From Octopus sinensis (lineage: Eukaryota): a stretch of 64,000 nt of DNA. The DNA lies in assembly GCF_006345805.1 (NCBI RefSeq), contig NC_043023.1:4092001-4156000 (forward strand), in the 5' to 3' direction. The notes under the pieces are model-generated. The model did not search any database, was not told the DNA's origin, and was given only the letters and a program-made list of their open reading frames with translations. Below are positions 1,746-58,215 of this stretch, in pieces. The stretch's first letter is position 1. Each line of letters opens with the position of its first letter. The position numbers and the translations under genes are program-made.

Positions 1746-1960
1746 TGCATATATATATATATATGTGTGTGTATGTATGTATGTATGTATGTATGTATTT
1801 ATGTGTATATGTATGTATTTATGTGTATATATATATATGTATGTATGTATTTATATGTATATATATATATGTATGTATTTATATGTATATATATATGTAT
1901 GTATTTATATGTATGTATGTATGTATTGATATATATATATATATATATATTACGGAGATG

Positions 1961-2289
1961 TACTCACATAGCAAGTGATCTGATCTGAGATCGTGTGCTT
2001 GAACGAAAACAATTGCAGCGAGGAAGGTGTTTGTAAGCCATTTAAGAAACACACAAAAGCCGTTCGATTCACTTCAACATTTAAGTTTAATTTGTCAAAA
2101 TATTTTCGTCGCTAAAATCCGTGACCTGTTCGTTGACAAAAATCCGTGCTGCACAGATATTTGTCAGTGAACAGGTCGCGGATTTTAACGACGAAAATAT
2201 TTTGAAAAATTAAACTTAAATGTTGAAGTGAATCGAACGGCTTTTGTGTGTTTCTTAAATGGCTTACAAACACCTTCCACGCTGCAATT

Positions 2290-2290
<1 letters not shown>
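1961..2290. mobile_element. Fold-back palindromic repeat (PLE-terminus-like) carrying a hammerhead motif
   Basis: Arms about 2010-2145 and 2155-2290 are reverse complements; the same family recurs at 57859-58067. Confidence 0.75.
2159..2210 (+). ncRNA. Minimal type I hammerhead ribozyme-like motif with G3/C8 swapped core
   Basis: AUUUGUCA-GUGAACA-G-GUCG...CGAC-GAA-AAUAUU-U-UGAAAAAU: stem I 7 of 8 pairs, stem II GUCG/CGAC, palindromic stem III. Confidence 0.6.
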
Positions 2291-4487: not shown

Positions 4488-4642
4488 CAGGAGTGGCTGT
4501 GTGGTAAGTAGCTTGCTTACCAACCACATGGCTCTGGCTTCAGTCCCACTGTGTGGCACCTTGGGCAAGTGTCTTCTACTAAGCCTCAGCCCGACCAAAG
4601 ACTTGTGAGTGGATTCGGTAGACAGAAACTTGAAGAAGTCCG

Positions 4643-4682
<40 letters not shown>

Positions 4683-4834
4683 ATATATGTATGTATATGT
4701 TGGTGTGTCTGTGTTTGTTCCCCCAACATCACTTGACAACTGATGCTGGTGTGTTTACGTCCCCGTAACATAGCGGTTCAGCAAAAGAGATTGATAGAAT
4801 AAGTACTAGGCTTACAAAGAATAAGTCCTGGGGC
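4488..4834 (+). mobile_element. tRNA-derived SINE with internal (TA)n. Abundant family; other copies at about 10590-10950, 17430-17715, 28258-28790, 33742-34167(-), 41270-41680, 50654-50982, 55422-56012, 58387-58930
   Basis: A-box TGGCTGTGTGG, B-box-like GGTTCAGTCCC (GCTTCAGTCCC in this copy), CCTTGGGCAAGT core; repeated many times in the window. Confidence 0.85.
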
Positions 4835-5319: not shown

Positions 5320-5800
5320 ACTTGATGTTTGTAAGAATGGGGAGGTTAAAACATCCATACCTTAAAGTAAATTAAATTAAATTAAGTTAATAGTTACTCA
5401 GAATTCATTCTCTCTGCATTGTGCCAGAAATTGTATTAATTATTTTTTTGTTAGTCCACAGAATAGAAAGGGATTCCTCGGAGCAGAGATGGCATTTCCT
5501 GGAAATTATACTGTATGGTTTCACATACCATACTAATGACTAATTTATGCTGTACTTCATTTTATCCTCCTTCAGTCACGATACAAAATCTGTTGAATGT
5601 CTCTTATTGATTACCTTAAAACTGGCAACATGGTTGCGATAACATTTCTTAAATGAATCAGCCGTATGCCCAATGTAAACATAACAGCCCTTCCTTTGTG
5701 TGCACAGTACATTTTTATACTCATTTGTATTATTACAGAGATTCATCATAGGACATTTTGATTTTTCTCTGCATGAGCATTTATCATATTTATTTGTATA
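5320..5800 (-). mobile_element. Penelope-like element GIY-YIG endonuclease remnant
   Basis: KCSCREKSKCPMMNLC...YVYIGHTADSFKKCYRNHVASF...RHST: Cys cluster, YIG and (R)YxNH. Confidence 0.75.
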
Positions 5801-19948: not shown

Positions 19949-19994
19949 TCTTACAGCTGTTTCCAGGATATTTATTATGTCCCTTCATCAGAGA
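19949..19994 (-). ncRNA. Minimal type I hammerhead ribozyme motif, canonical core
   Basis: UCU-CUGAUGA-AGGGACAU AAUAA AUAUCCUG-GAA-ACAGCUGU-A-AGA; palindromic stem III, GUA cleavage triplet. Confidence 0.72.
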
Positions 19995-24159: not shown

Positions 24160-24425
24160 GTCAGTTGCCCACAGCCAGCAGACTAAGGTGACCTTTGTTT
24201 ACCCATCCTGCTTCAAGAACCTTGTGGAGGAGTTTTGGAGTTCCAAGCAGTGATGATTTTTGTAGATGTTCTATCTTTACATTTATACCCATCTTTTTGA
24301 GCCTTGTTGCTAGTTGAGTGCTGCTACTTCCAAGCACACCAACCACCATTGCTTTCACATCCACTCTCTTCATTGCCCATAACCTGCGTATTTCCCACTT
24401 CAGTTCTTCATAATTGTCCACTATT
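24160..24425 (-). mobile_element. R4/Dong-like LINE 3' fragment
   Basis: YEELKWEIRRLWAMKRVDVKAMVVGVLG...LQKSSLLGT (C-terminus of the restriction-like endonuclease domain). Confidence 0.75.
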
Positions 24426-24488
24426 TCTTTTTTCTCTTCAATCCTGTTGATGTTGTTGTTATTATTATTATTATTATTCTGTTTTCAG

Positions 24489-24641
24489 CTGGGGAAGCAG
24501 AAGACTCTAACAATATGGCAATGTATATCGGTGTCTGCGTAGCATTTGCTGTGTGTATAACTGTGGTGGTTATACTAGTGTTGATAATACGAAGACGAAA
24601 CATACAAAATCAAGGGGTCTTTGACATGGACCCTACAGGAG
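24489..24641 (+). CDS. unc5: UNC-5 exon: transmembrane helix
   Basis: gttttcag|CT...GGAG|gtgagt; 153 nt, phase 1-1. Encodes GEAEDSNNMAMYIGVCVAFAVCITVVVILVLIIRRRNIQNQGVFDMDPTG (hydrophobic span plus RRR stop-transfer; A-x-Y-x-G start typical of the UNC5 TM). Confidence 0.93.
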
Positions 24642-25661
24642 GTGAGTTCATACATTCAAGTATTAATGTGTGCGTAAGTGTGTGGTTTTCCTCTTTTCAG
24701 CCAGTTCCTATATATCTGCCTGTCTCTATAAGCATGTGTATGTATCAAACTTCTTAACTACACAGTCATTTCTGAGATATACCATAGTATTTTCCCAGTA
24801 GGTAATAGCATAGATTGAATAGAAAAACCCAATACATTAGTGAAATTGGATATTAAGTGACTAGAATCCTTCAATCACCTCTATCTATGGCGCATCCTTC
24901 ATGTCCGGTAGGGGGATGAGTCACTATTTCTAGCAATCAAGTGTCCTCTTGGCATTAATACTGCCTCTGCCGATAATATATATTCCTTATGGTTTTATAT
25001 ATGCCTCACAGAATACTTTTATTGCTTGGATTTTCTGGGTTTTCAGTGGCATGGACACAACATTTCACTACTTTGTAATTGATTAATACGTAGGCTGATA
25101 GCCAAGTCCATATGAGGAGCTTACTGTGATAACTACACAATTCTCTGAATCCATATCCTATACCAGCCATTTATGCGCGTGTGTGTATAGATATATATAT
25201 GTATGTATATACATATAACATCAGCATTTAACATCCACATTTCTGTGAACTTTATACATGCATGTTTATATTACCAAAATAAATAGATATCTGTTCACCT
25301 AAACACACATATATATGCTGGTGATAATACAGAGAGTGTATATATTTATATTTAGATACACAAGATCTCTCTTTCTTAAAGATGTGTGTATTGTGTCTGA
25401 GTGTCAGTGTGTGTGCGTGTGTATATATATATATATATATATTCACACACACACACACACTTACTTCCATATACATATTTCTATTAGCATATACTGATAG
25501 GCACCTAGCAAATCATGCCTTATGTGTATTATATATATATATATATATATATACTCTTTACTCTTTTACTTGTTTCAGTCATTTGACTGCGCCCATGCTG
25601 GAGCAGAATATATATGTATATATATATATATACAGTATATATATATATGTATTATATACAG

Positions 25662-32004: not shown

Positions 32005-32395
32005 TGGCACATGGTTCAGGGATTAGAGCATCGGGCCCACAATCGTGAGATTGTGAGTTTGATTCTCAGACTGGGCTGTGTGTTGTGTTCTTGAGCAAGA
32101 CACTTTATTTCACGTGCTCCAGTTCACTCAGCTGTAGAAATGAGTTGTGACATCACTGGTGCCAAGCCGTATCAGTCTTTGCCTTTCCCTTGGATAACAT
32201 TGGTGGTATGGAGAGGAGAGGCTGGTATGCATGGGCGACTGCTGGTCTTCCATAGAGAAAACTTTAAAAAGTGATTGAATCGCACTGCTAACACAGGTAG
32301 GACATGATATTGACTTGCCCAGACTTGTGCCTCAGAGGGGAACTTTCTAGTTGCAATCTATACTCATTCATGGCCAAAGGGGTTCTTTACCTTAC
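32005..32395 (+). mobile_element. tRNA-derived SINE (TTGAGCAAGACAC core); related copies at about 1270-1525(-), 11490-11695(-), 21000-21135(-)
   Basis: tRNA-like head followed by GTTCTTGAGCAAGACACTTTATTTCAC. Confidence 0.75.
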
Positions 32396-32465
32396 TTTAC
32401 CTTTATGTATGTATATGTGCTTGTGTATGTATGTATCATATATATTTCCATTTTAACCATTCCAG

Positions 32466-32891
32466 ATATGGTGTCTGTTCAGCCTGATTTGACGCAAACA
32501 GTGGTCAGTATACGTCCAGCCAACGTCGACTCACCAAACAACAACATTGAACCAACAGTCGACAAGACAGCCTCAATGAGCAACAAGTCTCAGCAGCTGG
32601 CACAGACCCTATCAAAAGGGGGCAGCAAGCATGGCCCTGGTGACCACCTATTGACAGAGAATCCCCTTGGTGGCTCCATGGAGAAGTTAGCCATCAAATC
32701 GCATCCCAAGAACACAATGTCCATGAGTTCAAGCATGTCAATGAACCAGAGGCCAATCTCAAACGGAGATGTCCAGTCAGCCAGTCGGTTATCACTCATG
32801 TCCACCCAGTTACCATGCAACATCGAAGCTGATGCCGTCATCTGGGGCACGTTTACACACACTGGTGGACGACTGTGCCTCAATGAATCAG
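32466..32891 (+). CDS. unc5: UNC-5 exon: cytoplasmic linker (VQPDLT motif) and start of ZU5 domain
   Basis: ttccag|AT...TCAG|gtaagt; 426 nt, phase 1-1. DMVSVQPDLTQT...VIWGTFTHTGGRLCLNES matches the UNC5 PDLT motif and the ZU5 start GTFxxxGGRL. Confidence 0.93.
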
Positions 32892-33134
32892 GTAAGTTAT
32901 GTTATTAATGATGGTGATGATGATGCTAGTTATAGTAATGATGATAAATTATCATAATTTCAAATTTCGTTAAAAGTCCAGTAATTTCAGGGAAGGCTGT
33001 AAGTCAATTACATCAACCCCAGTGTTCAACTGGTCCTTATTTTATTGACCCTAAGAGGATGAAAGGCAAAGTCAACCTCAGCGGAATTTGAACCCTAATG
33101 TAGACATAATGCCACAAAGCATTTTACCTGGCAC

Positions 33135-34611: not shown

Positions 34612-36040
34612 GGATGGAAAAGTGTGCTATGTTAAAAATGAAACTAGGAAGATTTGAAAGAAACGAGGGAATTGAAATGCCAAAATGGGCAAAGAATGAG
34701 AGCAGTCAAAAAAGGACAATGGTATAAGTACTTGGGAATACTGGAAGCAGATGAAATAAAAATGAAGAAATGAAACAAATTACAATTGAGGTGTACACAA
34801 GGAGAGTCAGAAAATTATTGCAATCAAAGCTGAAGTCCAAAAATTTTATTGAAGCAATAAATTCAAGAGCAGTACCATTAATAGATATGGTGTTGGAATT
34901 AAAGACTGGACTAGAAACGATATATGAAGAAACTTGACAGAAAAATTAGGAAGTTGTTAACAATGTATGGATCCCACCATCCAAAAACTGGTATCAACTG
35001 GCTGAGAGACGAGGGTGGAAGAGAGTTAATAGCAGTAGAGGAATGTGTACAGATGGAGAGAAAGAGTTTAGTAGAGTATTTACAGAGCAGCACAGAAATA
35101 ATACTAAAGACAGGTAATGAAGACAGAAACCACCAAAGACAGGTGATGGAGCACTTAATAAGGAGAAAAGGACAAGAACGAAATACAAAGAGAGCAGACA
35201 GATCAAAGGGAAACCTGTGAAGGGCCAATTTTGGAGAATCACTGAAGACGTATGTGGAACAAAACCCTGGGCTTGGTTAAAAAAGGGGTGATTAAGAAAA
35301 AGAAACAGAGACCCTAATTGTAGCAGCCCAAGATCAAGCGATAAAAACAAACAACTTGAGAAAAATATGAAGAGAATGTTTCAGAAAAATGTAGAGTCTG
35401 TGGAACTTGGAATGAGACATTGTGGAAGAGTACCCCAAGTTGGCACAGGAAGAATATAAGAAACTGAGGCACGACCAGGTTGTAAATGTTTTACACTGGA
35501 AACTGTGCCAGAAATGGGGATTTGAAGCTGGAAACATATGGTAGCCTCTTTGAGTTGAATGAGTACTGGAATTGAAGAAATGTAAGATTTTGATGGGACT
35601 TTGCTATTGAAATGGACAAGAAGTTAGAAAATAATAGACCAGACATAACAATTATAGGTAAAGAAAAGCAAAGTGGCTTAATTATCGACCCCTTGTGCCC
35701 ATATGATTCCAGGATCATAAAGAAAGAGGAAGAAAAACAAAGAAAATGCAATCCCTTAAAGTTTGAAATAGGAAGAATTTGGAGCATGTGAACAGTAAAG
35801 GTTATACCTGTAGTAATTGGTGCATTGGGAACAGTAAACCAAGATGTAGACAAATAGTTGAAGGAGATTGAAATAGAATGCCTGGTAGGGCTCCTACAAA
35901 AAGTTTGTCTCTTAGGGAGAGCAAGGATGATTATCAGAAGGGTTCTAAACACTTGGAAGACTGCTGAAAACTTGTGGATACCTAAGGTTACAGGTAGTAA
36001 CCTGCTAGCCACATAATTCCTACTAAAATTTCTAGTAAAA
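34612..36040 (+). mobile_element. 5'-truncated R4/Dong-clade LINE (RT C-terminus, Zn knuckle, restriction-like endonuclease), degenerate
   Basis: YKYLGILEAD, KLDRKIRKLLTMYGSHHPK, AAQDQAIKT, RHDQV, NNRPDI and IPVVIGALG; flanked by (TAA)n. Confidence 0.9.
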
Positions 36041-40027: not shown

Positions 40028-40116
40028 GTAAGAACACTCACTCTTCTATATTTAAGAGATGAGGGATTATGAACATTTACGTTCAACGGATATTTGTCCT
40101 CATCTTGTTTGTTGTT

Positions 40117-40162
40117 AACACAACGTTTCGGCTGATATACCTTCCAGCCTTCATCAGGTGTC
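40117..40162 (-). ncRNA. Minimal type I hammerhead ribozyme motif, canonical core, in a PLE-like terminal repeat (about 40045-40207)
   Basis: GACAC-CUGAUGA-A-GGCUG GAAGGUAUAU CAGCC-GAA-ACGU-U-GUGUU; perfect 5-bp stem II, palindromic stem III. Confidence 0.78.
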
Positions 40163-40441
40163 TTGGGGAAATTACAAACCTGGGTTCTCATTCCTAAGGT
40201 ATTTTTCAATGTTGTTATTGTTGTTATTATTATTAAGAAGGCTGTCCTACACCATATTAAAATAAATTTGTTTGAAATTTTAAGGTGTTTCCATTATTTT
40301 GTCCAACCTCTGTATGTATATATATATATATATATATATACCGGAGTAAGCACATAGATGTGAAACAAGGTGGACAAAAGAGTACTCAAATACCAGAGGT
40401 AGAGTAATATGTTTTATTTAAAAGCAGCAGAAATATAACAA

Positions 40442-40635: not shown

Positions 40636-42138
40636 AAAGAAGAACAAGCAAAAATAACCAACAACACAAGGATGTGGTACAAGTACTGTGTTATTGGACA
40701 CTCAGGAAAGGAAAGAAAAGAAAGGATTTCACTCTATCAGCTGAAATGTGTTAACAACAAACAAGATGAGGACATATATCTGTCGAATGTAAATAATGAA
40801 CACACTCTGGGTTTTTTTTTTTTTTTGCATAGGTACATTGTCTATTTGAGCAAGACACTTTGTTTCACCTTGCTTAGACTACTTGGCTCTATACATGTAC
40901 CAGCTAACTACTGGTGTAGCCCCCCCCCTCTCTTTCTCTCTCTCGCCTACTCTTTCTCCCTCCCACTCTTTCTCCCTCACCCCAGAGGACAATAAGATCC
41001 CTAATGTTCTGCTGAGTTAAGACAGGTAGGGAGATGGCTGTGTCTCATTGTGACTCCATCTGCACCTAATACAACCAGCAAAAGCAGGGTATCAACTACA
41101 AAGTCACATGCAGTTCCAAATAGCTGCCATCTCTTTATATTTCTGTATACATGTGTATGTCTGTGTACACACACACACACACACACACACATATTTAGGC
41201 TAATATGTGTATGTGTATATACATGTGTGTCTGTGTGTACACATACACATACTCATATATGTGCAGGTTAGCAACTTGCCTTACAACCAAAGGATTCCAG
41301 GTTCAGTCCCACTGTGTGGCTCCTTGGGAAAGTCTTTTCTGCTATAGCCTTGGGCCAACCAAAGCCTTCCGAGTGGATTTGGTTGAAAGAAACTGAAAGA
41401 AGCCCGTCGTATACATATATATCTATGTGTGTGTGTGTCTTTGTGTTTCTTTTGTGTCCCCCCTCCCCCACTGCTTGACAATCAATATTGGTGTGTTAAC
41501 ACCCCTATAACTTAGCAGTTCAGCAAAAGTGACTGATAGAATATGTACCACGCTTTAAAAAAAAAAAAAAGAATTACTGGGGTCGATAGGTTTGACTAAA
41601 AATTCTTATACTGGTTTCAATTATAGACTGTGGCCATGCTGGGGCATGGCTGCACTCTAATGACTGAAACCAGTACAAGACAGATATTTCTTTGTATTGA
41701 ATGCTTTTCTCTCCGTTTCCCCAAAACAATGGGAAACTTAATTCACCGAGATGCAGCTTGTAGCAAGATGTGTGTGCACGTGGTGCACTCTGGTTGCATG
41801 CATTTTGAAGTGTGGAGGTGCACACAATTTATGAAATTGCAATATTATGTCAGTTTGTGTGACTAATGCAACATGTGCATAAATGACTGTGCAGCAGTGT
41901 TGATTGGTTTAGGAGGAGGAGGAGGGTTGGGTAGGAGGTTATTGTTGATCAATACAAGTATTGGTATTAAACTGTAGTAGTTCATAGGATGCAGGTGGTG
42001 GTGGTGGTGGTCGTGGTTGTGTAGTCCCAAGTCACCCTGATCCACTTGTCCTATCACGCACAAAGTAGGTAGCTGAAGTTTGACATATTCACATCTCTAC
42101 ACACTTTCGCATGCAGCAAAAGAATGTGTGAGATGCAA

Positions 42139-42889
42139 TGTGACAGTCTGGACATTTTGTACTCTCTCAGTGTGACAGTCTGGACATTTTGTACTCTCTC
42201 AGTGTGACAGTCTGGACATTTTGTACTCTCTCAGTGTGACAGTCTGGACATTTTGTACTCTCTGTGTGGCAGTCTGGACATATTGTACTCTCTCAGTGTG
42301 GCAGTCTGGACATTTTGTACTCTCTCGGTGTGACAGTCTGGACATTCCATACTCTCTCAGTGTGACAGTCTGGACATATTGTACTCTCTCAGTGTGGCAG
42401 TCTGGACATTTTGTACTCTCTCGGTGTGACAGTCTGGACATTTTGTACTCTCTCGGTGTGACAGTCTGGACATATTGTACTCTTTCAGTGTGGCAGTCTG
42501 GACATATTGTACTCTCTCAGTGTGGCAGTCTGGACATATTGTACTCTCTCAGTGTGGCAGTCTGGACATATTGTACTCTCTCAGTGTGACAGTCTGGACA
42601 TATTGTACTCTCTCAGTGTGACAGTCTGGACATTTTGTACTCTCTCAGTGTGACAGTCTGGACATTTTGTACTCTCTCAGTGTGACAGTCTGGACATATT
42701 GTACTCTCTCAGTTTGGCAGTCTGGACATATTGTACTCTTTCAGTGTGACAGTCTGGACATATTGTACTCTCTCAGTGTGACAGTCTGGACATATTGTAC
42801 TCTCTCAGTGTGGCAGTCTGGACATTCTGTACTCTCTCAGTGTGGCAGTCTGGACATTCTGTACTCTCTCAGTGTGGCAGTCTGGACAT
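42139..42889 (+). repeat. 32-bp minisatellite, about 23 copies
   Basis: Unit TGTGRCAGTCTGGACATWTTGTACTCTCTCAG repeated head-to-tail with no spacers. Confidence 0.97.
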
Positions 42890-43152
42890 AGACTCTCTTT
42901 GCTGTTTGGTTGATTTCTGTATTCCTGAAAATGCTGTATGCTCCAACATGCAGTAATATTGTAGGGGTCAACAGTCTTACAATAACTTTCTCCTCCATCT
43001 CTCTCCTTAAAGGAGCTTTTTTTACAGTCCAACCTTCTTCTCCAAGTCATGCAAAATTAAGCATCTCTCTCTCTCTCTTTCTCTTTGTCTTCCTTCCTCT
43101 CACTCGCACATACACACACACACTCTAACTCTTTCTCTCTTCCACACAACAG

Positions 43153-46514: not shown

Positions 46515-49500
46515 TTCCTGGTGGGAATTATGTGGCTAGCAGGTTACTACCTGTAACCTTAGGTATCCACAAGTTTTCAGCAGTCTTCCAAGTGTTTAGA
46601 ACCCTTCTGATGATCAATCCTTGCTCTCCCTAAGAGACAAACTTTTTGTAGAAGCCCTACCAGGCATTCTATTTCAATTTTCTTCAACCATTTGTCTATA
46701 TCTTGGTTTACTGTTCCCAACACACCAATTACTACAGGTATAACCTTTACTATTCACATGCTCCAAATTCTTCCTATTTCAAACTTTAAGGGATTGCATT
46801 TTCTTTGTTTTTCTTCCTCTTTCTTTATGATCCTGGAATCATATGGGCACAAGGGGTTGATAATTAAGCAACTTTGCTTTTCTTTACCTATAATTGTTAT
46901 CTGGTCTATTATATTCTAACTTCTTGTCCATTTCAATAGCAAAGTCCCACCAAAATCTTACATTTCTTCAATTCCAGTACTCATTCAACTCAAAGAGGCT
47001 ACCATATGTTTCCAGCTTCAAATCCCCATTTCTGGCACAGTTTCCAGTGTAAAACATTTACAACCTGGTCGTGCCTCCATTTCTTATATTCTTCCTATGC
47101 CAACTTGGGGTACTCTTCCACAATGTGTGCCACTGTCTCATTCCAAGTTCTACAGACTCTACATTTTTCTGAAACATTCTCTTCATATTTTTTCTCAAGT
47201 TGTTTGTTTTTATCGCTTGATCTTGGGCTGCTACAATTAGGCTTTCTGTTTTTTTTGTTTTTTTTAATCACCCCTTTTTTAACCAAACCCAGGATTTTGT
47301 TCCACATACGTCTTCAGTGACTCTCCAAAATTGGCCCTTCACAGGTTTCTCTTTGATATCCCTGATGTGCTCTCTTTGTATTTCGTTCTTGTCCCTTTTC
47401 TCCTTATTAAGTGCTCCATCACCTGTCTTTGGTAGTTTCTGTCTTCGTTAATTGTCTTTAGTATTTTTTTTTCTGTGCTGCTCTGTAAATACTCTACTAA
47501 ACTCTTTCTTTCCATCTGTACCCATTTCTCTACTGCTATTAACTCTCTTCCACCCTCGTCTCTCTTCAAGTACAGCCGGTTGATGTCAGCTTTCGGATGG
47601 TGGGATCCATACATTGTCAACAACTTCCTAATTTTTCTGTCAGGTTTCTTCATATATCATTTCTGGTCCAGTCTTTAATTCCAACACCATATCTATTAAG
47701 GGTAGTACTGCTCTTGAATTTATTGCTTCAATAAAATTTTTGGAATTCAGCTTTAACAATTATTTTCTGACTCTCCTTGTGTACACCTTAATGGTAATTT
47801 GTTTCATTTCTTCATTTTTATTTCGTCTGCTTCCAGTATTCCCAAGTACTTATACCATTGTCCTTTTTTGACTGATCTCATTCTTTGCCCATTTGGCATT
47901 TCAATTCCCTCGTTTCTTTCAAGTCTTCCTAGTTTCATTTTCAATATATTGCACTTTCCTTTTCCAAATTCCATTCCTACACTATTTGAGAAATTGTGGA
48001 CAGTATGTACAAGATTTTTAAGCTGTTTCTTACCTTTCACGTAAACCTTTATACCATGCATGAAAAGGAGATGATTTATCTGACCATTTCCTTTTCCCAA
48101 ATCATAAGCAATTTTAACTTTTTGTAGTGTCCATGGTGATTGGTATGAAGACCAATGTGACTAGCAATGGAGATAAGCTTTCACCTTGGAATATTCCGTG
48201 TCTGATGTCTGATGTTCACTTTTCTGAGTCTGTTTTCCTTTGATCAATTCAGTATTCCAATATTTCATACTTTCATTAAGCATTTTCTCTGTGTTTCTTA
48301 CTATTCCAAACATGCTCATTGTTCTACTCATCCATCTGTGTGGTACCATGTCATATGTGTTTTGTAATCTAGCTCTGCTACCTCCAGTCCCGTCAATCTG
48401 CATCTGCAATCTCTATCATTTTCTTGACTAATAAGTGTTCTCTTGTTGCCCTGCTTTGTTTCCTGTATCCTTTCTGTTCTTCTGGAAGTAGAGTACTACT
48501 TTCCAGATGGTTTTATAACTCTTCCACCAAGACACCAGCCATAAGCTTCCACATAAGTGGTTAACAGGTTATAGGTCAAAAGCTTGATGCCAAGTTCCCT
48601 TTCAAAGGATCCTTGAGGCATAGTAGCATTCATGCAGACAGGGACCTTGCTGCAAGCAGTCTTCCAGCTGCATAATGATCCTTTCATGAAAATGTTGTAA
48701 AGTTCTTCAGCCAAATAGTCTTGTACTCCATTTGGACCTAGGCCTTTTCAATTTGCTATTTTTTTAAAACTTCTGTCTCATCATATGTAGATTAATTCTG
48801 ATGCCCTTTTGTCTTGGCACTGTTGTCTTTCCACTTTTGTCAGCCACTCCACACTTTCTTTATGTCCCGTTGACCTGTTCCACAGCTTTCCCAAAAATTC
48901 TTTACTTTCATCAACATCTAGAATCAGTTCCTGGTATTGGCCTCCCTCTATTTCCTCAAATAGATGCCTTCTATTCTGTTTAAAACCTTTGCAGTTGGCT
49001 TCATATCTTTTCAATTTGGCCTTTAATGTTGTCACCTTTTGTATCAATTCCTCATATACTCTTTGGTTCCCTCTTTCTTTTAACCTGTCCACTCAATTTT
49101 CTGATTGCTACCTTATTCTTAAACTCTCCTCTCGTTATCCTTTTCAATTGCCCCAGTTCTTTCTGTGTCTTTTCCAGCTTCATTCAAATTCTCTTCCTCC
49201 AATTTGATTCTTTTCATTTGCTTTCATATTTTCAGTTTTTCACTTGTCACCTACCATGTTACCTACAACATTAGCAGCAGCTGTGATTAGTCGATTTGTT
49301 TCACTGATGGTTTCTCTTTTAATCATGCTTAAAGCATCCTTTACTCCGCCCATGGCTTTCCTCATTTGTTTTCTGTCCATATATCTTACATTTGATGGTA
49401 CTTCACTGTTCCTATCAGACATTTTACTTTGCAACACTTCTAAAATCTCCTTCTCTTCATCATTCAAGTCTTGTACAGTACTTACTGTCACTTGTCCACC

Positions 49501-57621: not shown

Positions 57622-57858
57622 TATACATGTATATATATGTATATATATGAAAATTTATAAAAATAAGGTAAAGTAAAATAATTTACTTTACCACACACCG
57701 AGCTTTTTAGAAATAGCAGCCAAAAATTTGGCTATTTCTTCAACTGCAAGAAAAAGTCTCCCAGACAATGCATACTCAGAAATAACTCACATAGGTATAA
57801 GGGAAAATCAACGAAAGATCACATCCATATATATATATATGTGTGTGTGTGTGTATAT

Positions 57859-58215
<357 letters not shown>

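What the first reader, a model, noticed from the sequence alone, without database searches (positions are those of the whole stretch)
2159..2210. Natural hammerhead-ribozyme variant with the C3-G8 core pair swapped to G3-C8
Seen: AUUUGUCA-GUGAACA-G-GUCG..CGAC-GAA-AAUAUU-U-UGAAAAAU has the full type I topology (stem I, stem II, GAAA, palindromic stem III), but the CUGANGA box reads GUGAACA. The same GUGAACAG box plus GUCG/CGAC stem II and GAAA recurs on the minus strand at 57861-57891, so it looks like a family trait rather than a single mutation. Established: C3 and G8 form a Watson-Crick pair in the active hammerhead, engineered C3G/G8C swaps rescue activity, and minimal hammerheads with palindromic stem III occur in Penelope-like elements and cleave as dimers. 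Inference: this is an abundant ribozyme family that CUGANGA-based searches would miss. I cannot check whether it has already been reported.
Basis: partly seen in the sequence, partly recalled or inferred. Interest (0 to 1): 0.8.

Follow-up and report, generated by a model that had tools for sequence, protein, structure and literature searches.

The report
Natural swapped-pair hammerhead in octopus retrotransposon
Thousands of copies of an octopus jumping gene carry a small RNA motif laid out like a self-cutting hammerhead ribozyme but with two paired core letters swapped (G-C instead of C-G), while its two sister families have C-G and U-A at the same spot, so the pairing is likely kept by selection and the RNA would probably still cut slowly, although cutting has not been tested.

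Summary
The motif is real. It is the minimal type I hammerhead in the pseudo-LTR of a GIY-YIG Penelope-like element (family A). The genome holds 4,063 exact core + stem II + stem III matches; a pLTR-ORF-pLTR copy has it in both pLTRs. Best evidence: two sister families, one clade with A, have C3-G8 (B) and U3-A8 (C) at the same place, with stem II covarying. So G3-C8 is a natural compensatory swap. The window copy is passive: two decay changes, and it lies in a 290-bp palindrome that masks it. The 57861 copy is a truncated member of the same family, not independent evidence. Against strong activity: 1 of 91 arms starts at the cut site, and B breaks A9. Cleavage is untested. Natural U3-A8 and engineered G3-C8 are published; eight searches found no natural G3-C8, but the key 2017 paper was not held. 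This scan noted G3-C8 swaps before, in protist Penelope-like elements and phages.

The parts
2160..2209 (+). Minimal type I hammerhead motif with G3-C8 core pair (G3 2167, C8 2172, extra G 2174, G10.1-C11.1 2175/2192, predicted cut after U17 at 2202); two decay changes at 2188 and 2206
2150..2290 (+). Right arm of the insertion: 5' UTR of the Penelope-like element with the hammerhead, ORF start codon at 2259-2261, ending at the short 3' end (CAATTG)
1950..2145 (-). Left, inverted arm: same segment carried to the long 'tail' end at 1950; first 30 codons of the element's ORF from ATG at 2041 (one stop in this copy)
2091..2140 (-). Second hammerhead remnant in the left arm, with positions 3 and 4 of the core mutated (reads ACGAACA), predicted inactive
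57857..57898 (-). Truncated copy of the same motif (core, stem II, GAAA; no cut site or stem I 3' strand)
57899..58070 (+). Opposite arm of the second insertion: stem II through the tail, lacking the core and stem I 5' strand

Best explanation
This is the minimal hammerhead motif in the pseudo-LTR of an octopus Penelope-like retrotransposon family, in which the C3-G8 core pair has been replaced by G3-C8; the fold is likely kept by selection and is predicted to cleave only slowly, probably needing a second copy or the element's protein. Shown: the motif lies about 60 nt upstream of the ORF start and again about 1 kb behind the RT/GIY-YIG ORF, on the ORF strand. Inferred: transcription starts about 23 nt before G3 (or a splice acceptor lies there). 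The element's protein copies this RNA from two start sites about 57 nt apart, on both DNA strands, which gives head-to-head palindromes like the one in the window. The RNAs that were copied had almost all escaped cutting, so a slow G3-C8 ribozyme costs the element little. The window copy is a passive, decayed insertion that would fold as a long hairpin rather than a ribozyme.
For: Three related families, one clade (100/99 support), have three different Watson-Crick pairs at 3-8 at the same place behind the ORF: A G3-C8, B C3-G8 (45 of 51 pattern matches), C U3-A8 (28 of 31). All keep U4 G5 A6, the extra G, G10.1-C11.1, GAAA, a palindromic stem III and H17. Two stem II pairs change on both sides across the families. 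The motif has the features that Cervera and de la Pena found beyond their descriptor: extra nucleotide, G10.1-C11.1, palindromic stem III (PMC4209133). Link to the element: 18 of 24 family-A ORF ends have it 0.9-1.1 kb downstream on the same strand; 18 of 25 family-C ORF loci have theirs in the flank; L398 is pLTR-ORF-pLTR. Among 277 arms, columns with a minor letter of 10% or more: 0 of 42 in core and stems, 4 of 8 in loop II, 13 of 147 in the flanks. An intact single arm folds stems I and II with probability 0.69-1.0. Engineered C3G/G8C partly restores cleavage in a Penelope-like hammerhead (PMC11167929) and was the only rescue within the CUGA motif in a pairwise screen (PMC9901934).
Against: No cleavage data. 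Of 91 arms picked by an anchor downstream of the motif, 1 starts at the cut site, and microhomology explains it; 54 start 50-63 nt upstream of it. Family B has C at position 9 instead of A, so core constraint in this clade may be relaxed. Position 8 is not C in 525 genomic matches (29 of the first 100 listed are G, counted by eye), and such copies exist next to ORFs. The column contrast is weak (about p 0.03 one-sided, my hand arithmetic; columns and copies are not independent). The cross-family case rests on three lineages, and one search used 8 related rows. In the anole element, hammerhead mutants did not affect insertion in vitro (PMC11167929). 45 of 91 arms have an inverted partner over the motif, and only 10 of 91 are both intact and free.
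Confidence: 0.68

Rival explanations
1. Vestigial ribozyme: the fold descends from a hammerhead and stems I and II are kept for another use (binding the element's protein, promoter or translation control), but the G3-C8 form no longer cleaves to any useful extent.
For: Copied RNAs were uncut (1 of 91). Sister B has lost A9. The motif overlaps the likely transcription start region. PMC11167929 found cleavage dispensable for insertion in vitro and no RNA-seq ends at the cut site.
Against: A dead core would not be expected to keep a Watson-Crick pair at 3-8 in all three families together with U4, G5, A6, G12-A15.1, U16.1 and H17.
Confidence: 0.27
2. Chance: G at 3 and C at 8 are two unrelated neutral substitutions in a dead motif, amplified by retrotransposition.
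For: Post-insertion copies decay freely; only three lineages were compared.
Against: All three lineages are complementary at 3-8 with three different pairs. The rest of the core is unchanged although the proteins are only 48-57% identical.
Confidence: 0.04
3. The palindrome is a MITE or fold-back DNA transposon and the hammerhead look is incidental.
For: The window copy is a 290-bp near-perfect inverted repeat.
Against: The arms have unequal, fixed ends (46 long, 43 short, 2 between, of 91). The centre varies. Target duplications are 10-16 nt and variable. The arm reads in frame into an RT/GIY-YIG ORF.
Confidence: 0.01

Closest known systems
Minimal type I hammerheads (min-HHR) in the pLTRs of metazoan Penelope-like elements (Cervera and de la Pena 2014, PMC4209133)
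   Same: Location in the pLTR of an RT + GIY-YIG element; U4 G5 A6 N7, A9, extra nucleotide before stem II, G10.1-C11.1, GAAA, short palindromic stem III, NUH site; many dispersed single and opposite-strand copies.
   Different: G3-C8 instead of C3-G8. The paper reports U3-A8 as its only 3-8 covariation; none of the 9 'GUGA' strings in its supplementary file 2 is in the core position, and its descriptor fixes 'cuganga'.
Natural U3-A8 hammerheads (Perreault 2011, PMC3088659; Schistosoma PLE variant in PMC4209133)
   Same: Compensatory exchange of the 3-8 pair in nature; sister family C here is of this kind.
   Different: U3-A8 is two transitions from C3-G8 and can pass through a U-G wobble; G3-C8 needs two transversions through a mismatch (inference).
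Engineered C3G/G8C hammerheads (PMC11167929, PMC9901934, PMC8495972, PMC3884650)
   Same: Same swapped pair; partial rescue of cleavage.
   Different: Made in the laboratory; here fixed in a natural family with thousands of copies.
Poseidon element of the anole (PAc; PMC11167929)
   Same: Hammerhead at the pLTR-ORF junction, two preferred 3' ends defining a tail within the ORF start, uncut RNA used for insertion.
   Different: PAc has C3-G8 and its ORF starts inside the ribozyme; here the ATG is about 60 nt behind the cut site, the tail is about 57 nt, and the protein has a Cys-rich RT-EN linker as described for Neptune/Nematis (PMC8557442).

Membership tests
Hammerhead ribozyme (minimal type I) | Invariant core U4 G5 A6, A9, G12 A13 A14, A15.1-U16.1 | tested here: met
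   Window copy; each of these letters is the commonest in 95% or more of aligned arms
Hammerhead ribozyme (minimal type I) | Literal C3 and G8 (CUGANGA consensus) | tested here: not met
   G3 and C8; no C3-G8 among the 11 genomic matches changed at both places
Hammerhead ribozyme (minimal type I) | Watson-Crick pair between positions 3 and 8 | tested here: met
   G-C in A, C-G in B, U-A in C; 187 of 213 arms covering both places are G3-C8
Hammerhead ribozyme (minimal type I) | Stems I and II flank the core; G10.1-C11.1 | tested here: met
   7-bp and 5-bp stems in intact copies, predicted probability 0.69-1.0 in a single arm; weakened and masked in the window copy
Hammerhead ribozyme (minimal type I) | Short palindromic stem III allowing a dimer | tested here: inconclusive
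   AATATT is palindromic, but a cofold of two copies gave a strand-exchanged dimer, not the stem III dimer
Hammerhead ribozyme (minimal type I) | NUH cleavage triplet | tested here: met
   UUU; U17 in 233 of 235 arms
Hammerhead ribozyme (minimal type I) | Site-specific self-cleavage | not testable with these tools
   Needs a bench assay; the genomic 5'-end proxy shows 1 of 91 at the site
Rfam hammerhead families | Match to a hammerhead covariance model | tested here: not met
   No hammerhead hit at E up to 10 for A or for the C3-G8 sister B, so the test does not separate them
Penelope-like element (EN+) | Single ORF with RT and C-terminal GIY-YIG endonuclease | tested here: met
   722- and 1042-aa ORFs. 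No direct Pfam hit. Homologs at 34-35% identity hit RVT_1 and GIY-YIG; atlas neighbours at 0.96 carry HTH_animal, RVT_1, GIY-YIG
Penelope-like element (EN+) | Direct or inverted pLTRs, tail at one end, variable target duplication | tested here: met
   L398 direct, L123 inverted; two 3' ends; target-duplication matches in 15 of 30 loci, 9 of them clean, against a control mean of 3.5
Neptune clade of Penelope-like elements | Cys-rich linker between RT and EN, and placement among reference Neptune proteins | tested here: inconclusive
   Four invariant linker cysteines (C593, C597, C600, C608); no named reference elements were in the tree

The most novel reading that the evidence does not exclude
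An animal retroelement family has fixed a working G3-C8 hammerhead, crossing a two-transversion valley, and the three sister families form a natural series (C-G, U-A, G-C) of cleavage rates tuned low enough for uncut RNA to serve as template; pattern searches fixed on CUGANGA have missed this whole class.
Probability: 0.35. Interest if true: 0.7.

Novelty: new variant of a known kind. Interest (0 to 1): 0.52.

Why it matters
It widens the natural hammerhead core from C3-G8 and U3-A8 to G3-C8, with comparative support from sister elements in one genome, and shows that descriptor searches fixed on CUGANGA miss thousands of motifs. The A/B/C trio is a ready natural test set for an open question: whether hammerheads of Penelope-like elements must cleave for the element to move, or only ride along. 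The genomic 5' ends already show that the RNAs that were copied were uncut.

Tried and rejected
G3-G8 as a surviving evolutionary intermediate: 17 of 214 arms had G8, but that sample was enriched for duplicated ORF-start loci. G8 copies sit on several loop II backgrounds, and in L290 and L335/L389 one arm or pLTR has G8 and the other C8; rejected as recurrent mutation. Cleavage footprint in genomic 5' ends: none. The C2 tandem array (L121, L122) as a full-length array: it is another repeat unit carrying a pLTR fragment, with no RT ORF. An intron before the ORF: not needed, since the arm reads in frame into the ORF. Expression: no RNA holder listed and no raw reads; contigs were laid only to read variants. 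A protein search with the 30-codon ORF start could not be run. Pfam and PDB searches with the element's own protein gave nothing. The cofold did not give the stem III dimer. Rfam on the whole window was swamped by microsatellite matches (only the best 150 of 495 were listed). Loci L034-L060 mostly share flanks (nested in a larger repeat) and were left out of the column counts. No covariance model was built. Look-ups of earlier notes by sequence and by place were empty.

Full report
1. Observation. The described letters are at 2159-2210 on the + strand. In hammerhead numbering: stem I 2160-2166 with 2203-2209, G3 2167, C8 2172, A9 2173, an extra G, stem II 2175-2179 with 2188-2192, GAA, palindromic AATATT, U17 at 2202. 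A descriptor that accepts any Watson-Crick pair at 3-8 found 2 hits in the window, this one and a C3-G8 motif at 40157 (-), against 0.01 per window in 100 block-wise shuffles. The copy is the right arm of a 289-nt inverted repeat. The copy at 57861-57891 is a truncated member of the same repeat.

2. The family. The genome is an octopus genome: a protein named Octopus vulgaris by its source matches G000 at 99%. Exact matches: 6,953 for an 18-mer over stem I and the core and 4,063 for core + stem II + stem III, with 0 for the reversed controls. These counts include both arms of palindromes and passively duplicated copies. Insertions end at one of two places about 57 nt apart (46 long, 43 short, 2 between, of 91 arms). 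Target-duplication matches were found in 15 of 30 loci against a control mean of 3.5; 9 are clean 10-16-nt duplications, 4 are TA repeats and 2 are short.

3. It is the pseudo-LTR of a Penelope-like element. Copies with longer upstream sequence led to loci with an RT + GIY-YIG ORF. 18 of 24 family-A ORF ends have the G3-C8 motif 0.9-1.1 kb downstream on the same strand. The 30 codons at the end of the arm continue in frame into the ORF. L398 is pLTR-ORF-pLTR with the motif in both pLTRs, 4,361 nt apart; its ORF has one frameshift. The protein has no Pfam hit of its own; homologs and atlas neighbours carry RVT_1, GIY-YIG and HTH_animal. Inverted 5'-truncated copies and a tail at one end are described as typical of these elements (PMC8557442, passages), and the tail has been traced to two reverse-transcription starts (PMC11167929, passages).

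4. The swap is compensatory. Two sister families in the same genome, B (56-57% protein identity to A) and C (48% to A and 57% to B, decayed copy), form one clade with A: (A,(B,C)), 100/99 support, midpoint root, 28 rows of which 21 were picked from the 120 listed homologs. At the same place behind the ORF, B reads CTGATGC (45 of 51 pattern matches; 5 of the other 6 look like unrelated matches) and C reads TTGAAAA (28 of 31). 18 of 25 family-C ORF loci have the motif within the fetched flank. So position 3-8 is G-C, C-G and U-A in A, B and C. The rest of the core, the extra G and G10.1-C11.1 are shared, and two stem II pairs change on both sides (8 distinct related rows; stems I and III were left out of the count because the C rows were misaligned there). 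Within A no C3-G8 or U3-A8 copy was found among the 11 matches changed at both places. Across 277 arms picked without the motif in the query, common variants (10% or more) fall in 4 of 8 loop II columns, 13 of 147 flank columns and 0 of 42 core and stem columns. Just under that cut lie A to G in stem I (18 of 236, keeps a U-G pair) and G8 (17 of 214, see Tried and rejected). Contigs of four public runs show the same pattern: among variants of 3% or more, none is in positions 3-9 or 12-17 (these runs are of the same or close species, and one may be the source).

5. How it probably works. Of 91 arms picked by an anchor 60 nt downstream of the cut site, 1 begins at the cut site, 54 begin 50-63 nt upstream of it, and only 5 extend further. 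Arms that begin at -59 often have an extra G in front: 30 of 40 rows, 7 of 10 after removing rows with element-derived or repeated upstream sequence. I read this as a capped transcription start about 23 nt before G3 (inference; the idea that a copied cap leaves an extra G is recalled from other retroelements). The same place is also an AG behind a pyrimidine tract and a branch-point-like CTAAC, so a splice acceptor is not excluded. An internal promoter and a 5' intron are both known for Drosophila Penelope (PMC2377424, passages). Either way the copied RNA was uncut, as for the anole element, where cleavage needed the protein, the double mutant C3G/G8C partly restored it, and hammerhead mutants still inserted (PMC11167929). 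A slow, conditional ribozyme fits this best; a vestigial one is the main rival, helped by B's C9. An intact single arm is predicted to fold stems I and II, whereas in the window palindrome their probability is 0.0. Only 10 of 91 arms are both intact and free of an inverted partner.

6. What is known. PMC4209133 (parts 1-2 of 4 read; supplementary file 2 searched, file 1 not available) defines the minimal hammerheads of these elements, reports U3-A8 and low activity as dimers, and lists no GUGA core. PMC3088659 (section 8 and passages) reports natural U3-A8 only. PMC9901934, PMC8495972 and PMC3884650 (passages) describe engineered G3-C8. PMC6765202, PMC6155905 and bioRxiv 10.64898/2026.07.22.740005 (passages) gave nothing on natural G3-C8. 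Eight full-text searches showed no natural G3-C8 in the listings. Not held and not seen: Lunse, Weinberg and Breaker on small hammerheads of Penelope-like elements, the likeliest place for a prior report; Martick and Scott 2006; Przybilski and Hammann 2007; two Nelson and Uhlenbeck 2008 papers. Earlier notes of this scan describe G3-C8 motifs in four protist Penelope-like loci and three phages; I did not test them, and they are not counted as support.

7. Verdict. A real, natural G3-C8 variant of the minimal Penelope-type hammerhead, with comparative support from C3-G8 and U3-A8 sister families. It works like, and by descent is, a hammerhead; catalytic activity is untested and probably low. 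The window copy is a decayed passive insertion. New variant of a known kind; interest 0.52.

Noticed in passing
window 40110-40165 (-): A canonical C3-G8 minimal hammerhead passes the descriptor at 40157; imperfect look-alikes at 19991, 30306, 30707 and 36876 (-) do not pass.
   Followed up: partly
L138 about 4638-4688 (family B): The sister family with young, intact ORFs has C instead of A at core position 9 in nearly all copies, and U or C at position 17.
   Followed up: partly
L405, L409-L458 (family C): A third, older family with a natural U3-A8 hammerhead, a 4-nt palindromic stem III and a 3-bp stem I.
   Followed up: yes
family A arms, position -59 from the cut site: Extra G in front of the clustered 5' ends, a possible reverse-transcribed cap (30 of 40 rows, 7 of 10 strict).
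   Followed up: partly
window 24383-24754 and 32351-32905 (+): Probable exons of a transmembrane receptor gene that look like unc-5 (name recalled; no Pfam support). Whether the finding lies in one of its introns was not checked.
   Followed up: no
window 5579-5800 (-): Fragment that reads like the GIY-YIG end of another Penelope-like element (motif recalled; no Pfam hit).
   Followed up: no
L034-L060; L121-L122; L345-L351: Family A arms captured inside larger repeats and tandem arrays (shared flanks; 2.5-3.2-kb unit on C2; arrays on C30) and copied passively.
   Followed up: partly
window 35417-35928 with 46617-47126; 42098-43005: A 96-98% inverted pair of about 510 nt, 11 kb apart, and a 32-bp minisatellite.
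   Followed up: no
genome-wide: About half of the arms have an inverted partner (45 of 91), so many copies would form near-perfect hairpins of 100-290 bp if transcribed, possible double-stranded RNA substrates (inference).
   Followed up: no
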